Positions 29,882 through 36,300 are shown, counted from the first letter of the stretch. The stretch: 64,000 nucleotides of DNA from an uncultured Clostridia bacterium (GCA_934120395.1 CAKOTZ010000001.1:63065-127064); one strand, 5' to 3'. The notes: generated by a model not told the origin, from the sequence alone. Numbers and translations are program-made.

Positions 29882-30340
29882 ATGCAAAAAAAATTATTAA
29901 TAGGAATTATTTTAATACTAGGAATAATATGTCAGGCAAGTAATAGCTTTGCAGCAGATTCCTCTACCAGTACTGCTAGGGGTGTAGAACTTATAAAAAG
30001 CAATGATGGAAGCGGTGCTTTGCAAAATCAAGAAGAATTAAAGAAAAAGAATGAAATAAATGTTAGCATTAAATTAGCAAGTGATAAATTTCTTGAAAAA
30101 GCATATAAAAAAGTACAAGAAAAATCAGCTATGACATCACAACAAATAGAAAATATTGTTGGACAGATGTGGTTTGAAGAAACTGGAAGTTTTATGCCAG
30201 ATAGTGTGAAGGAAGATTTTAATAATTATGTAAAAAAATGTTGGGAAGAAGACCAAAAATCAGAATTACAAAAATTAATTGAAAGATGGACTGGGAAAAT
30301 GCGGACAATCATATGCAAAGAGATATCCAGATATATATAA
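29882..30340 (+). CDS. Signal-peptide-bearing N-terminal fragment, probably the true 5' end of the downstream giant gene. A frameshift separates it from ORF 30279..37781
   Basis: N-terminus MQKKLLIGIILILGIICQASNSFA. The ORF overlaps the start of the 30279 ORF in another frame, and the downstream ORF has no signal peptide. Confidence 0.55.
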   Translation: MQKKLLIGIILILGIICQASNSFAADSSTSTARGVELIKSNDGSGALQNQEELKKKNEINVSIKLASDKFLEKAYKKVQEKSAMTSQQIENIVGQMWFEETGSFMPDSVKEDFNNYVKKCWEEDQKSELQKLIERWTGKMRTIICKEISRYI

Positions 30341-33300
30341 GAAAGCTAATGAAGTGGCAAATGGAAAAATTGATGTTATGTCAGAAAAAATAGTTGATAT
30401 GGCATTAAGTCCATTATATGATGAAATTGAAAATTTAACAGCAGATATTCCAGCTATAGGCAAAATTGCGAAACAAGTACTTAGCAAATATGGTAAATAT
30501 CAAGAAGCAGACAAAATAGCAAACACACTAAAAGACCAAATAACTAAAAGCAACAGTGAAAGAGTGAAGGATAAATTAAATAAAGACAATAAAGATGCTA
30601 ATGGAAATATTGATAATACTAAACCAAATTTCAATTGGGAGTATGAAACATATTATGCAACTTTAGAAGTACTATCTGTTGAAGCTACAAAACTGACAAA
30701 TGATTTTTTAGATAAAGCTAACCAATACATAGCTGAGAAATTAGGTGGAAAAATAGGAAAAGATTTAGCAGATACCTTAACTTCATATTTTAAAGGTAAT
30801 ATCCAAGCATACATGGATGGAAATATGTTGAAATGGAAAGATACTTTATGGGATTCAACACATAAAACGCTATCTGAAGAAGAATTTAATCAATTATATG
30901 GTGCTGTTGAAAAGGAATTTAAAAATGTAGAAGATGCAATGATAGAAGATGCACAAAAAAAAGTTGATATTATGGTTCAAGAAGCTAAAATTCAAATGAA
31001 TGATAAATTTGCTCAAATAAGGGCAGAAGCTCTAGTAAAAATTACAAATAGTATGTCAGATATGGCTACAGATTTTGCAGGAAGACTATTTAGTCAAGTT
31101 ACTGATAAATCAAATAAACTAGGAAGTAATTTAGGAAAAATTGGAAATGCTTGTGTAACTAACATTACTAATCAAGTTACAAATTGGGCAACAGGTGAAA
31201 TACAAAAATTTGTAGTCAAAACTATGACAGATTTCTTTTTTGGAAGCATGGGGGGACAAAGTTTATTTAATGTTGCAGGGCTAAAATTTGAAGGGCTAAA
31301 AATAGACTGGACTTCTGTTGCTATTGATGTATTAATATCGTGCTTTGAAGATAATGAAACAGTGCAAATTTTAGCAAGTTTAGGAATATTATATTTTTTT
31401 AACACAATTACTTTTCATGATACTGGGTATGACACATATAATAATATGTATTATATGTTTTCAACTTTAGGAAATTGGTTAATACCAACCTTAAAAGGGT
31501 CAGCATCTTATGGAGCACCAAGAATTCAGGGATTGGCTCCAACACAATTTCAAGACTGGTTTGATGCTACTTTAAGAGTAATGCCAGGGATAGGAATACC
31601 AGTTATAAATAGATTGGAAGTACCAATTGTATTTAATGAATTAAGTAACATGGGATTATTTTCAGCTTGGGTCCTTTATCCGGGGCCAATATTGATAGAT
31701 TATTTACCTTACAATGCTATAACAAATACATATAGTAGTTTCATTCCAATTAGTTCAAAAAGAATTGGAGGAGAAAGCACATATTTAAGTGATGCAGCAT
31801 ATATACTATGTGAAATGGATTCAAATTACTGTGCAGATTCGTATGTTCAACGTGCTTTATCACAAACAGGAATATATAGAGGAGCAACTTATGAAGAAGA
31901 TTATATGTCGGAGGCCTTGAATGCGGAAGCTGCAAAGTATTCAAGCTTTAGAGAACAAGCGTCATCTTATAATGGATATGTAAATTCAATACAAGATAAT
32001 ACTGAAACAGCGAAGGTATTATATGACAGATGGAATTCTGCATACATATTTGGCCCGTTTAAAGTAGATTATATACATGATTTTGTGTATACAGATTTAA
32101 GAGGTAAAGTAGATTTTGGATTTATATATGATATGGAGATATATGACCAAGATGGGAATAAAATAGATAAAAACTATTGGAATATAACTTTTTCGGATGA
32201 TACTAAGCTAGATAGATTAACAAATGATGAAGACTATAATTTTCCGTATCCAAATGAAGAATTTTATATTGAATTAATGAATTATGGAGATAATAATATA
32301 CAGAGTATTAGTAAAATAGAAATTAAATATAAAGAAATGCAAGCGCAAGCATCATATCAAGATTTGCTAAGTTGGTATTATATGGGAATGTGGCATGAAT
32401 ATATTAACAAAGTTAAATTTTATACAGGTGCTTCAACCTGGATATGGCATTTTGAACATTATTTTACATATGCAGATATAGCACAAATAAATAAATCAGC
32501 GATTACGGTAGATAACGCTGTAAAATATTATTTACACCACACACAAACAATAACTTTACAAAAAAATCCTAGCCATGGAGGATATGAAACAGAAACATTT
32601 ACAACTACAAGTACAACTGTAACTGATGGAAGAACGGAACTTTCAAATGTAAATGGTGGTAAATTAAATAGTTCATTAAGAGAATCTTTAACAGCTGCTT
32701 ATGCACTGTATAAATATTCACATCCAGATGAGGAAAACGAAGAAGAAAAAGCACAAAAAGAAAAAGAGACAGCTGAGCAGAAACAAAAAATGCAGGATGC
32801 AATAGATGCTAGAGAAAAGCAAATATATGATGAGTATTATGGAAAAATAGAAGAAATAGGAATGAACAATCCAAAAGCAACAGAAAAAGCAAAAAATAAG
32901 CTTTTGTCAGATTTAAGACATCTAGAAAGTCAGAAACTTGCATTGAATAATTTATCACAACTTTATAAAACTAATAATAATAAAACAACTTTAGAGAAAA
33001 GATTAGAATCATTATCACCAACATTAAATACTATAAACAATGCGTTTGCAAGCATGGCAAACTTTAATCCAATGAAAGATGGATTAGAAGTTGTGTTAAA
33101 GAATTTGAATGTTAACAAAGATTTAATGAAGGTATATAACGTATATAATGTTTTGAATTCAAATTACATGACTGATTTGGTTAAAACAATGTATGTTGCA
33201 AATACATTAATAGATTCAAAAGAAGGAAAATATATAATTAATGCTGTAGGAACTATAACAGCTTTTGCAAATCATAATGGTGGAGATATACTTGGAATGT

Positions 33301-36300
33301 TATCAGTTGTTGCTTCATCATTAGGAAAAACTGAATATGCAAATAGTATAAATAATTTAACAAAAATGGTTAGTGGTTTAGATAGTAAAACCATGAAAAT
33401 TGCAACAAAAGTATATTGGGAAGCATTAAATTACAAGGGCGACGATATGGAAAAACATATTAAGGATTTAGTTAATAAGTATGGAGAAGGACTAAATGAA
33501 AAAGAAAAACAAGAGGCAATTAAATCTGCAATTAAAATGGTAAACTATACAGACAATAACTCTGATTTAGGAGACCTAAGCGGTTATGCACAAAAAGCAC
33601 AAAATACTATTGATAAATTAACTGGATATAAAAGAGAAAACAAAGATACAGAGAAGAAAGAGGAAACAAACAGTAAAAAAGAGACAACAAATAGTGAAAA
33701 CGAAAAAACAAATAACCAAAAGAGTGCAATGGAAAATGGACTAGAAGTAATTAAAGGTATTGCTGGAAAAGACAGTGATATAACGAAGACAATAGATAAA
33801 TCAGAGAGTTTCTTCCGTGGTACATCTAATACATCTAAAGATGAATTTTGGTCTACTTTGATTGTAGCGGCACAAGAAATGGCTAACGGAAAATCAAAAG
33901 AAGATGCAATGGAAAAAGCTATTAAAATATCTAAGTCGAATGATCAAGCAAATGTTATAAACAAATATATCGAAGCAACAGATAGTATGACTGCTGACCA
34001 AGTTAAAGAACTAGTAAGTCAATTAAGTAAAAGTTCTAATATGGACGGAATAGAAGCTGTTTTAAATACAGCACTTGAAAGAAATGCTAAAATGTCAGAC
34101 GAAGAAAAGACAGAAGCCGAAACAAGACCTTATGCAGATACATTAGCAGAACTTACTGTTCTTGAAGATGCTACACCATATATTGAATATAGTCCTAAAT
34201 TTTCAATTACTAATATAGATAGACCAAATGAAGTGTATTGGGCAAATGATGATGAATTGGGCATGACAATTGGTGTTGCTGGTGCAGTATGGAAAGATGG
34301 ACATAGTGGATTAGAAACAGACTACGATGGTATTAGAGGAGCTAATGCAAATGGTGACCTAGAATTAGGACTTGAAGGAATAAAAGTAACATTAGTAGAT
34401 AGAATAACAGGACAGACAGGAAAAATGTATAATAGTAGTGGAAGAAAGGTAGATGCTACAACATACACAGACTCAGGTGGATATTATCATATTGAAAGAG
34501 TACCAGTAGGAGAATATGATGTAGTATTTGAATACGATGGACAAACATATAAGGCAACCGATTATTTAGCTGGTGGAGGTATATTAGAATATCTAGATGA
34601 GCCAGACCTAGACACTTATGATAACAATTCAAAAGCAATTGAAAATGCAAGTGAAAGAAGAAGATTTAATGAACGCTTTAATGAAATTGTAAATGGATAT
34701 GCAATAGGAAAAGACGGAACAAAAACTGCACTTGCCTATGACAAATCAGGTGGAGAAAGCAAATTAATTACGCTAGATGATGCAGGACACGTTTTACCAC
34801 AGTTTGCAATGCATGCAAGTACGGCACTACTTGGAATAACATATCCAATTGATGATCAATTCTCATTAGATAATGAAGATACAACAATTATTTTAAATGG
34901 AAATAAATTAACATTCCATAAAGCTGGAGAATATATGTACCATGTTAACCTAGGATTAATTGAAAGGGCTAAGGCAGACTTAGCAGTAACACAAGATGTA
35001 TACACAGTAGATACAACTATAAATCAAAAACAGGAAACATATTATTATGATTTAAGAAATCCAGCAAATATATTTGATGCAAAATTGCAACAAACAAGTG
35101 CATATAGAGATATTTCATATACACGTGAGTTATATAAGGCTGATTATCAATTTAGAATAGATGATTACCAATATAACGAATTAAATCAATTAGACAGAAA
35201 TGAAGACGACAAGAAAGATGAAATAGCAGAAATTCAGAGAATAAAATGGAACAGTGAGGCTTGGGAAGAAAGAGTATTTGTTACTTACAAGCTTACAATT
35301 AAAAATCAATCGTTGCTACAAAAGGCATCTGTTAATGAATTAGTAGATTACTTTGATGGAAATTACAGTTTAGTTCCAGAAGATCTATATATGGATATTC
35401 AAGACGAAGAAGGAAAGCCACAACGTAAATTGGTTGCAAAACAATCATACTACGAATTAAATAGTGGAGAAACTGGAAAGATTACATGGACAGCAAATAG
35501 CAAAACGGGAGGAGCAGAACTTTATCCAGGATTTAATACAATGTATACAACAGGATTAGAAAACATACTATTAAGTTCGCATGACACAATAGATGTATAT
35601 GTAACTTTTGAAGTAGATAAAGGTCAAAATGATGCTCTAGAACTTGGCGAAAAACAAAACGTAATGGAAATTACAAATTATTCAACATTTGAAAGAAGTG
35701 CAACAGACAAAAATGATCCAGAAGGATTAATAGACAAAGACTCAGAGCCAGGAAATAGTAATCCATATTATATGGATGCTTATGAAGATGACAATGATGC
35801 AGCACCAGTTCTAAACTTGAAACTATATGAAAATGATGGCAGAACATTAGATGGATATGTATGGAATGATACACGCAATAAACTATTAAAAACTGGACAA
35901 TTAGTTGGAAACGGTATAATGGATGACGGCGAAGAAAAAATAGACGGAGTTAGAGTGCAATTAGTTGAAAAAATAGATGACCCAGATACTGGAGAGGAAT
36001 ATGAATATGTATGGAAAGAAATTTACACTGGAGAAGATAGATATAGTTTTGTACAACATGGTGGTGCAGTAGCAAATGGAGCAGGACAGGTAAATGACTA
36101 TGGAAGTATAACTACAGATACTACAATGGGTAGTGTAAATGAAGGTCAATATAAATTTAATGAATATATTGCAGGAAACTTTATTGTAAGATTCATTTAT
36201 GGTGATACACCAAAAACATATCTTGCAGAAGGATATGAAAATAGTGAAGGCGAAGGAAAGAACGATGTTTCATATAATGGACAAGATTACAAATCTACAA

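What the first reader, a model, noticed from the sequence alone, without database searches (positions are those of the whole stretch)
30279..34230. Unique N-terminal region of about 1270 aa on one type A giant protein
Residues 1 to about 1270 of ORF 30279..37781 have no counterpart in the two type A paralogs. The paralogs align only from about WNSAYIFGPFKVDY onward. The region is K/E-rich with predicted helical stretches, interleaved with a hydrophobic/aromatic block (FFFGSMGGQSLFNVAGLKFEGLKIDWTSVAIDVLISCF...ILYFFNTITFHDTGYDTYNNMYYMF) and Cys-containing segments (AYILCEMDSNYCADSYVQ). It may be a novel effector or passenger domain displayed on the adhesin stalk, though that is speculative. A signal peptide becomes available once the upstream fragment is fused.
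Basis: inference. Interest (0 to 1): 0.65.

Follow-up and report, generated by a model that had tools for sequence, protein, structure and literature searches.

The report
Head region of a broken giant adhesin
The flagged stretch is the real but uncharacterised outer "head" of a giant cell-wall-anchored surface protein found only in a small group of uncultured Clostridia; about a third of it is in fact shared with the neighbouring paralogs, and in this genome a one-base insertion breaks the gene.

Summary
ORF 30279..37781 exists as described. Deleting one A in GGGAAAA (30293-30299) joins it to ORF 29882..30340, giving a 2632-aa protein with a signal peptide and a TPPTG sortase signal. Intact versions exist: a 2626-aa close relative (90.5% identical) and syntenic orthologs of 2511 and 2554 aa.

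The claim that residues 1-1270 have no counterpart in the paralogs is only partly right. WNSAYIFGPFKVDY sits at residue 585, not about 1270. A roughly 420-aa module (residues 377-800) is homologous to the head module of both type A paralogs (hhalign E 1e-43). It contains most of the aromatic block and the Cys segment.

Two parts are truly unique: an N-terminal amphipathic helical region (about 376 ORF residues, 508 with the restored start) and a poorly conserved helical spacer of about 510 aa (801-1313). Both recur in about a dozen clusters of 2250-3340-aa proteins. Neither matches Pfam, NCBIfam, PHROGs or PDB. dN/dS is about 0.17. The head (residues 51-932 of the repaired protein) is a deeply divergent, recombining allele.

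Best reading: the variable distal binding and spacer head of a sortase-anchored fibrillar adhesin, inactivated here. Nothing supports an effector. A thioester-domain reading, suggested by motifs, failed every test.

The parts
29882..30340 (+). Upstream 152-aa ORF. It is the true 5' end of the gene: GGAGG ribosome-binding site, ATG, signal peptide at residues 1-24, and the first ~138 codons in frame 0.
   Evidence: The N-terminus matches the intact homologs P0045 and P0003 and the L007/L008 orthologs.
30293..30299 (+). GGGAAAA, the site of the one-base insertion (+1 A) that splits the gene.
   Evidence: Deleting one A gives a single 2632-aa frame reading ...ERWTGKCGQSY.... This aligns codon for codon with ...DRWAGKYGEMY... 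of the intact L009 gene. The same truncated 2500-aa product occurs in two sequence variants across at least 6 assemblies.
30279..37781 (+). The ORF as flagged (2500 aa, TTG start). It has no signal peptide or convincing ribosome-binding site of its own.
29954..31082 (+). Variable amphipathic alpha-helical region (repaired-protein residues 25-400), unique relative to the paralogs. It spans the frameshift.
   Evidence: AF2 predicts long helices H12-53, H58-103, H120-154, H163-194 and H200-321 at pLDDT 50-80. Hydropathy shows 3.6-residue periodicity. Residues 51-249 are only ~47% identical to a strain that is 97-99% identical in flanking DNA, with dS 0.92. No family or PDB match.
31083..31406 (+). 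Conserved helical adaptor (ORF residues 269-376), with motifs LGKxG..I...Q..NW.G.NI and GLKIDWT. This is the best-conserved unique segment.
   Evidence: Family consensus. dN/dS is 0.11 over repaired-protein residues 400-499. AF2 predicts helices H344-356 and H361-373.
31407..32678 (+). Head module (ORF residues 377-800), shared with paralogs A_801 and E_43225. It lacks the Cys of their [FY]C motif: Ser395 in MFSTLGNWLIP aligns with Cys in LFCVQHGQTIP. It keeps the invariant Gln524 (YVQRAL) and GPFKVDY.
   Evidence: BLASTP. hhalign probability 100%, E 1.1e-43. Invariant columns in a 24-sequence alignment. AF2 pLDDT 70-94 for residues 490-790.
32679..34217 (+). Helical spacer (ORF residues 801-1313), unique relative to the paralogs. 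It is K/E-rich and poorly conserved across the family. E_43225 has a ~60-aa Pro-rich linker at this position.
   Evidence: No paralog alignment. Few conserved columns. Spacer length in the family is 405-730 aa. No family hits. No tandem repeats of note.
34218..37667 (+). Stalk shared with the paralogs, including a weak SdrD_B / prealbumin-like domain.
   Evidence: 41% identity to E_43225 over about 1200 aa. Pfam SdrD_B scores 21.9 bits, below the cutoff. dN/dS is 0.03-0.16.
37668..37781 (+). Cell-wall sorting signal: TPPTG, a hydrophobic segment, the basic tail KKRVLDRK, then the stop codon.
   Evidence: The ITPPTG(E/Q/A)N motif is conserved across the family.
3354..4538 (+). Cys-type copy of the head module in paralog A_801 (residues ~852-1246; KELFCVQHGQTIP ... 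SFVQKAMY).
   Evidence: AF2 pLDDT 79.6.
43318..44442 (+). Cys-type copy of the head module in paralog E_43225 (residues ~32-406; LPIFCARKGG ... EVQQAFW), directly after its signal peptide.
55203..55754 (+). Sortase gene, the probable anchoring enzyme (context only).
   Evidence: Pfam Sortase, E 2e-21.

Best explanation
The region encodes the distal head of a giant (about 2630 aa) Sec-exported, sortase-anchored fibrillar adhesin. From the N-terminus, the protein is built as follows:
1. A signal peptide.
2. About 375 aa of variable amphipathic helices.
3. A conserved helical adaptor of about 110 aa.
4. An alpha/beta plus Ig-like head module of about 420 aa. This module is homologous to the head module of the neighbouring type A paralogs but lacks their conserved cysteine.
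5. A fast-evolving helical spacer of about 510 aa.
6. A stalk of about 1150 aa shared with the paralogs.
7. The sorting signal: TPPTG, a hydrophobic segment and a basic tail.

Inferred mechanism: the stalk and spacer project the head away from the wall. The module, with its two hypervariable loops and the hypervariable N-terminal helices, forms a non-covalent binding surface that is also exposed to the immune system or to phages. This surface is swapped between strains by recombination.

In this genome a one-base insertion at codon ~139 separates the signal peptide from the rest. The 2500-aa ORF cannot be exported, so the gene is a recent null allele. At most, rare +1 slippage on A-AAA could rescue it.

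Shown: the gene structure, the frameshift, homology of the module, purifying selection, restricted distribution, mosaic divergence and helical content. Inferred: adhesive function, and the roles of the helices as spacer and variable surface.
For: - Frameshift and repair.
- Intact homologs: P0045/L009 at 2626 aa and 90.5% identity. Syntenic intact orthologs of 2511 and 2554 aa with signal peptides.
- Sorting signal conserved across the family, with a sortase gene nearby.
- Coding constraint: dN/dS is 0.17 overall and 0.07-0.18 over repaired-protein residues 300-800.
- Shared module.
- Architecture conserved in about 12 representative clusters, from only 40 hits among 1.84 billion representative proteins.
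- Helices: AF2 and 3.6-residue periodicity.
- Mosaic head: dS is 0.92, 0.47 and 0.61 for residues 51-249, 250-508 and 509-932, against 0.018 for the stalk, in a strain whose flanking DNA is 97-99% identical. Variable loops at 550-595 and 846-893 coincide with low-pLDDT loops.
- No TM segment.
- No enzyme or toxin family match.
Against: - No ligand or binding activity can be inferred. No part of the head matches a characterised adhesive domain by sequence or fold.
- The AF2 model of the unique part is of low confidence (pLDDT 50-80 for the helices, below 50 for residues 324-486), so its tertiary arrangement is unknown.
- The gene is disrupted independently in three lineages: here; by a frameshift near codon 858 in L002-L005; and by a TAG codon in L006. 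It may therefore be dispensable or counter-selected.
- dN/dS stays below 1 everywhere, so diversifying selection is not demonstrated. Only deep allelic divergence is shown.
Confidence: 0.6

Rival explanations
1. The shared head module is a very divergent thioester domain (TED, Class II-like: beta-barrel, three helices, inserted beta-sandwich). On this reading the paralogs, which have [FY]C and Q-x-x-phi-[WY] motifs, bind targets covalently. The flagged protein would be a Cys-less derivative that lost covalent chemistry and gained helical extensions.
For: - Motifs in the paralogs and other Cys-type members (LFCVQHGQTIP / YLYCIANGVHIP, and VQQAFW / VQRALW / IQGAIW) fit the published [YFL]C-phi-zeta and TQXX-phi-W motifs (PMC6194298).
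- The Gln is invariant in all 24 aligned modules.
- The order of secondary structure in the AF2 model of the A_801 module is strands, then three helices, then a beta-sandwich, then a long terminal strand. This resembles the described Class II topology.
- The domain sits at the N-terminal tip of a sortase-anchored stalk, as in TIE proteins.
Against: - Pfam TED does not hit any of the 8 Cys-type or 15 target-type modules, even at E up to 1.
- NCBIfam gives no TQXA or TED hit.
- hhalign against the window's own Pfam-TED protein gives probability 0.2%.
- A PDB sequence-profile search finds no TED.
- No conserved candidate for the bond-forming Gln after the sandwich.
- The target itself has Ser, Ala, Gly, Met or Ile at the Cys position.
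Confidence: 0.18
2. The two helical regions flanking the module pair with each other into a long antiparallel stalk that presents the module at its tip. This would resemble the way the A and P regions of streptococcal antigen I/II present the V domain.
For: - Helical regions lie on both sides of a globular module and are of similar size in most orthologs: 477-577 aa before the module and 405-540 aa after it.
- AF2 predicts a single helix of about 120 residues (H200-321) that it cannot pack on its own at high confidence.
Against: - The lengths do not co-vary across the family (r = -0.16). P0017 and P0023 have 938 and 1240 aa before the module but about 405 aa after it.
- hhalign finds no relation between the two regions.
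- There are no Ala-rich or Pro-rich repeats.
Confidence: 0.12
3. The unique N-terminal region is a toxin or effector passenger, for example an alpha-helical membrane-active or pore-forming domain.
For: - Long amphipathic helices are followed by a hydrophobic, aromatic, conserved stretch.
- Weak sub-threshold similarities to apolipoprotein A-I (E 0.003), DUF445 and tape-measure proteins.
Against: - All these similarities are below family thresholds and typical of helical composition.
- No TM-grade hydrophobic segment is present.
- The aromatic stretch belongs largely to the module shared with the paralogs.
- There is no release or processing motif, no immunity-like small ORF and no secretion-system genes nearby.
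- The region is the most variable part of the protein, which is unlike a catalytic or toxin core.
Confidence: 0.05

Closest known systems
Sortase-anchored fibrillar adhesins / 'periscope' stalk proteins with SdrD-B or CnaB-like stalk domains (reviewed in PMC9210967 and PMC9704523)
   Same: Sec signal peptide, an N-terminal non-repetitive head, a long stalk of Ig-like or prealbumin-like domains, a C-terminal xPxTG signal with a hydrophobic segment and basic tail, and a sortase gene nearby. Very large size and fast-evolving tips.
   Different: The head has no described adhesive domain. It includes about 900 aa of alpha-helix in two blocks around a novel module. The stalk domains fall mostly below Pfam thresholds. 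The sorting motif is TPPTG rather than LPXTG.
TIE proteins with Class II thioester domains (BaTIE, SaTIE, EfmTIE86; PMC6194298, PMC4450167)
   Same: A head domain at the N-terminal tip of a sortase-anchored stalk. The paralogs' modules carry [FY]C and Q-x-x-phi-[WY] motifs and a helices-then-beta-sandwich order.
   Different: No sequence-profile or fold match to TEDs. The target lacks the Cys. There is no identifiable bond-forming Gln. A helical extension of about 480 aa precedes the module.
Streptococcal antigen I/II family (SpaP, SspB)
   Same: The overall order is extended region, globular head, extended region, Ig-like C-terminal domains, sortase signal.
   Different: No sequence similarity. 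No Ala-rich A repeats or Pro-rich P repeats. The lengths of the two flanking regions do not co-vary. SpaP and SspB C-domain hits in Foldseek were insignificant (E 0.36-1.3).
M and M-like proteins (hypervariable N-terminal helical tip on a wall-anchored protein)
   Same: An N-terminal alpha-helical segment that is the most variable part between strains and lies at the distal end of a sortase-anchored protein.
   Different: The periodicity is 3.6 rather than clearly heptad. There is no evidence of a dimeric coiled coil. The protein is ten times larger, with a globular module and an Ig-like stalk.

Membership tests
Sortase-dependent cell-wall-anchored surface protein | N-terminal Sec signal peptide | tested here: met
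   Present only after repair of the frameshift (MQKKLLIGIILILGIICQASNSFA; Kyte-Doolittle peak at residues 1-9). Present in the intact homologs. The ORF as it stands lacks one.
Sortase-dependent cell-wall-anchored surface protein | C-terminal sorting motif (LPXTG-like), hydrophobic segment and basic tail | tested here: met
   TPPTGQN, then AYYFVLATVVLVILTVGIIVI, then KKRVLDRK. The motif is a variant: the NCBIfam LPXTG_anchor model does not hit the target, and it scores 15.1 against a cutoff of 15.9 on paralog E_43225.
Sortase-dependent cell-wall-anchored surface protein | Cognate sortase encoded in the genome | tested here: met
   Pfam Sortase at 55203..55754, E 2e-21. Its specificity for TPPTG was not tested.
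Sortase-dependent cell-wall-anchored surface protein | Covalent attachment to peptidoglycan | not testable with these tools
   Needs biochemistry.
Thioester domain (TED) / TIE protein | Bond-forming Cys in a [YFL]C-phi-zeta motif | tested here: not met
   The target has Ser395 at the aligned position. Orthologs have Ser, Ala, Gly, Met, Ile or Leu. The paralogs A_801 and E_43225 do have the Cys.
Thioester domain (TED) / TIE protein | Sequence-profile match to the TED family (Pfam PF08341 / NCBIfam TQXA) | tested here: not met
   No hit in the target, the paralogs or 23 family members at E up to 1. hhalign against the window's own TED protein gives probability 0.2%.
Thioester domain (TED) / TIE protein | TED fold (beta-barrel plus three-helix bundle, with or without an inserted sandwich) recognisable against solved TEDs | tested here: not met
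Thioester domain (TED) / TIE protein | TQXX-phi-W motif on helix alpha-2 | tested here: inconclusive
   The Gln is invariant and lies in a predicted helix. The paralogs have Q-x-x-phi-[WY], whereas the target has YVQRALS with no Trp. A motif resemblance alone is not diagnostic.
Antigen I/II family | Ala-rich A repeats and Pro-rich P repeats flanking a V domain | tested here: not met
   No such tandem repeats, no Pfam hit, and the composition is K/E/N-rich.
Alpha-helical pore-forming toxins / polymorphic toxin domains | Match to a toxin family, or a hydrophobic membrane-insertion hairpin | tested here: not met
   No Pfam, NCBIfam, PHROGs or PDB match above threshold. No internal segment has a Kyte-Doolittle value above 1.5.

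The most novel reading that the evidence does not exclude
The head module shared by the type A giant proteins could be an unrecognised third class of internal-thioester or other autocatalytic cross-link domain, invisible to the current TED models. The Cys-type paralogs would bind targets covalently. The flagged family would be a natural Cys-less derivative that compensates with about 900 aa of helical extension and allelic head swapping.
Probability: 0.12. Interest if true: 0.6.

Novelty: new variant of a known kind. Interest (0 to 1): 0.3.

Why it matters
This defines two uncharacterised helical regions and one uncharacterised head module of about 420 aa. The module has invariant Tyr, Gln, Gly-Pro and Phe positions, and Cys-containing and Cys-less versions sit side by side in one locus. 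These are candidates for new domain-family entries for giant adhesins of uncultured Clostridia.

The head also behaves as a recombining allele. It has been knocked out independently in three lineages, the pattern expected of a surface structure under host or phage pressure.

The practical value is modest: better annotation of giant 'hypothetical' surface proteins, and a natural Cys-plus / Cys-minus pair for anyone testing covalent adhesion chemistry.

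Tried and rejected
- Known domains in the N-terminal region: Pfam, NCBIfam, PHROGs and PDB sequence searches gave nothing above threshold. The only hits were compositional helical ones: ApoA-I E 0.003, HA2, ATP synthase b, DUF445 at 21 bits against a cutoff of 33.8, and tape-measure phrog_6900 at E 9e-4.
- Transmembrane or pore reading of the aromatic block: no hydrophobic segment of TM grade.
- Internal duplication between the N-terminal and middle helical regions: BLAST and hhalign were negative.
- Antigen I/II-like pairing: the lengths do not co-vary.
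- Sequencing error as the cause of the split: rejected, because the same truncated product occurs in two sequence variants and at least 6 assemblies.
- Word-indexed homolog searches were saturated by low-complexity candidates and missed the orthologs. The exhaustive representative search and a synteny-based genome scan found them. The first genome-contig scan, using head peptides, found nothing.
- Riboswitch or regulatory RNA upstream: none; Rfam found only an unrelated skipping-rope RNA.
- The promoter scan was uninformative, with fewer hits than in shuffled sequence.

Full report
**Setting.** The window is chromosomal DNA at 29% G+C from a spore-forming Firmicute. It carries SpoIIE, RuvA, a TatD DNase, a zinc ABC transporter and a sortase. 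The nearest named relatives of the locus are MAGs labelled 'uncultured Clostridia bacterium'. The window holds six giant surface-protein genes. The flagged ORF 30279..37781 (2500 aa, TTG start) follows a 1788-aa DUF11/SdrD_B protein and a 152-aa ORF.

**Gene structure.**
- The 152-aa ORF 29882..30340 has a GGAGG ribosome-binding site, an ATG and a typical signal peptide. It overlaps the flagged ORF by 62 nt in another frame.
- Removing one A from GGGAAAA (30293-30299) yields a single 2632-aa reading frame.
- The repair is supported by a 2626-aa protein (P0045) in the same 90% cluster. It is 90.5% identical over the full length and sits in an identical gene neighbourhood in L009.
- It is also supported by intact syntenic orthologs of 2511 aa (L007) and 2554 aa (L008) with signal peptides.
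- The truncated 2500-aa product occurs in two sequence variants and at least six assemblies. The insertion is therefore a real mutation, not a sequencing error.
- The C-terminus reads TPPTG, then a hydrophobic segment, then KKRVLDRK. This is conserved as ITPPTG(E/Q/A)N across the family.
- A sortase gene lies at 55203..55754.

**Check of the observation.**
- BLASTP against the paralogs shows two shared blocks, not one. The first is T 490-735 with A_801 976-1234 and T 546-705 with E_43225 192-363. The second is T 1314-2499 with E_43225 470-1540.
- WNSAYIFGPFKVDY is at residue 585, inside the first block.
- A profile of 15 target-type sequences was aligned to a profile of 8 paralog-type modules. 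This extends the first block to T 377-761, with probability 100% and E 1.1e-43.
- In that alignment, YNNMYYMF-S-TLGNWLIP of the target matches ..LF-C-VQHGQTIP of the paralogs.
- Most of the 'aromatic block' and the whole 'Cys segment' therefore belong to a module of about 420 aa that the paralogs share.
- The cysteines in AYILCEMDSNYC are not conserved among orthologs.
- Unique relative to the paralogs are T 1-376 plus the upstream 138 codons, and T about 801-1313.

**Is the region real coding sequence, and how widespread is it?**
- Codon alignments with two sister lineages at about 81% nucleotide identity give dN/dS of 0.17 overall. The value is 0.07-0.18 across repaired-protein residues 300-800 and 0.13-0.29 over most of the spacer. 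The spacer's low-complexity core at 1195-1290 is too diverged for a dS estimate.
- An exhaustive HMMER search of 1.84 billion representative proteins with the N-terminal profile found only 40 proteins at E below 1e-3.
- About a dozen of these are giant proteins of 2250-3340 aa with the same order: helical region, module, helical spacer, stalk, TPPTG signal.
- The remaining hits share only the module, usually in a Cys-containing form.

**Structure.**
- AF2 on residues 1-810 with 15 sequences gave mean pLDDT 59.9.
- Residues 1-321 form long helices, one of about 120 residues, at pLDDT 50-80.
- Residues 324-486 are unresolved.
- Residues 490-790 form a confident alpha/beta region.
- Hydropathy has a 3.6-residue period.
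- Foldseek against the PDB found nothing, with a best E of 0.05.
- The spacer is poorly conserved, carries no repeats and shows no relation to the N-terminal helices.
- No internal segment reaches transmembrane hydrophobicity.

**The thioester lead.**
- Modules in A_801, E_43225 and other Cys-type proteins carry [FY]C-phi-x and Q-x-x-phi-[WY] motifs about 95-110 residues apart.
- They also carry an invariant Gln.
- This recalls the TED motifs described in PMC6194298.
- I tested the idea with Pfam on all members and NCBIfam.
- I also ran hhalign against the window's own TED protein, which gave probability 0.2%, and a PDB profile search.
- Membership is therefore not supported. A low-probability novel reading remains.
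- The target family lacks the Cys in any case.

**Population behaviour.**
- Against L009, whose flanking DNA is 97-99% identical, dS is 0 for codons 1-50 and 0.92 for 51-249.
- It is 0.47 for 250-508 and 0.61 for the module.
- It falls to 0.085 for the spacer and 0.018 for the stalk.
- The head is thus a deeply diverged allele placed on a near-identical backbone, which indicates recombination.
- The frameshift lies inside the replaced tract.
- Hot spots at 550-595 and 846-893 match the low-confidence loops of the module.
- The gene is also broken independently by a frameshift near codon 858 in L002-L005, where nine variants of the same 864-aa product occur in many samples. It is broken by an in-frame TAG in L006.

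**Conclusion.** The finding is a real, conserved, family-specific head of a sortase-anchored fibrillar adhesin. It is smaller and less 'unique' than described, and no effector function is supported. In this genome it is a null allele. It is a new variant of a known kind, of modest interest.

Noticed in passing
window 11..799/801..8249; 24504..29870/29882..37781; 37921..43218/43225..47847: The giant genes form three tight 'type B then type A' pairs, separated by 1, 11 and 6 nt. A 139-nt gap with a TTGAAA-17-TATAAT site (37874-37902) separates pair 2 from pair 3. The same B-A-B order holds in L002, L006, L007, L008 and L009. This suggests that each B and A protein are co-expressed partners. Sorting motifs differ by type: ITPPTG or TKPLG for type A, and V(R/K/A)TG for type B.
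   Followed up: partly
window 30052-30558 (and repaired-protein residues 51-932): A tract of about 500 nt has no BLASTN match to strain L009, although the flanks are 97-99% identical. dS falls from 0.92 in the tip to 0.018 in the stalk. The head is a swapped allele, and the frameshift lies within the replaced tract.
   Followed up: yes
L002-L005 (gene at L002 7876-15742) and L006 (stop at ~13187): The orthologous gene is disrupted independently in two sister lineages: a frameshift near codon 858 (864-aa and 1749-aa ORFs, seen in many samples) and an in-frame TAG (GKMYN*SGRK). The neighbouring giant genes stay intact.
   Followed up: partly
window ~4400-4540 (A_801) and ~44300-44440 (E_43225); P0022, P0025, P0018, P0028: Cys-type head modules carry a C-x(2-7)-C-x-H...H knuckle after the beta-sandwich, for example WCNEVENGHNTCIHNKTYSH. 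This could be a metal site or a disulfide loop. The flagged family lacks it.
   Followed up: no
window 55769..57286: A protein with Pfam TED and SpaA domains lies directly after the sortase gene. It ends 'LPKTGM*', with no hydrophobic segment or basic tail after the sorting motif.
   Followed up: partly
window 10985-11054 (- strand): Skipping-rope RNA motif (Rfam RF02924), 50.6 bits against a gathering score of 36.7, just downstream of the SpoIIE gene.
   Followed up: no
window 801..8249: Paralog A_801 carries two VWA domains (residues ~561-710 and 1938-2072) in addition to the Cys-type head module. It has about 850 aa upstream of that module, a different elaboration of the same scaffold.
   Followed up: no
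window 30279-31256 (ORF residues 235-326): Weak, sub-threshold similarities to phage tape-measure proteins (phrog_6900 E 9e-4; Pfam CIS_TMP 0.015 in one family member; Tape_meas_lam_C 0.15). These are probably compositional.
   Followed up: partly
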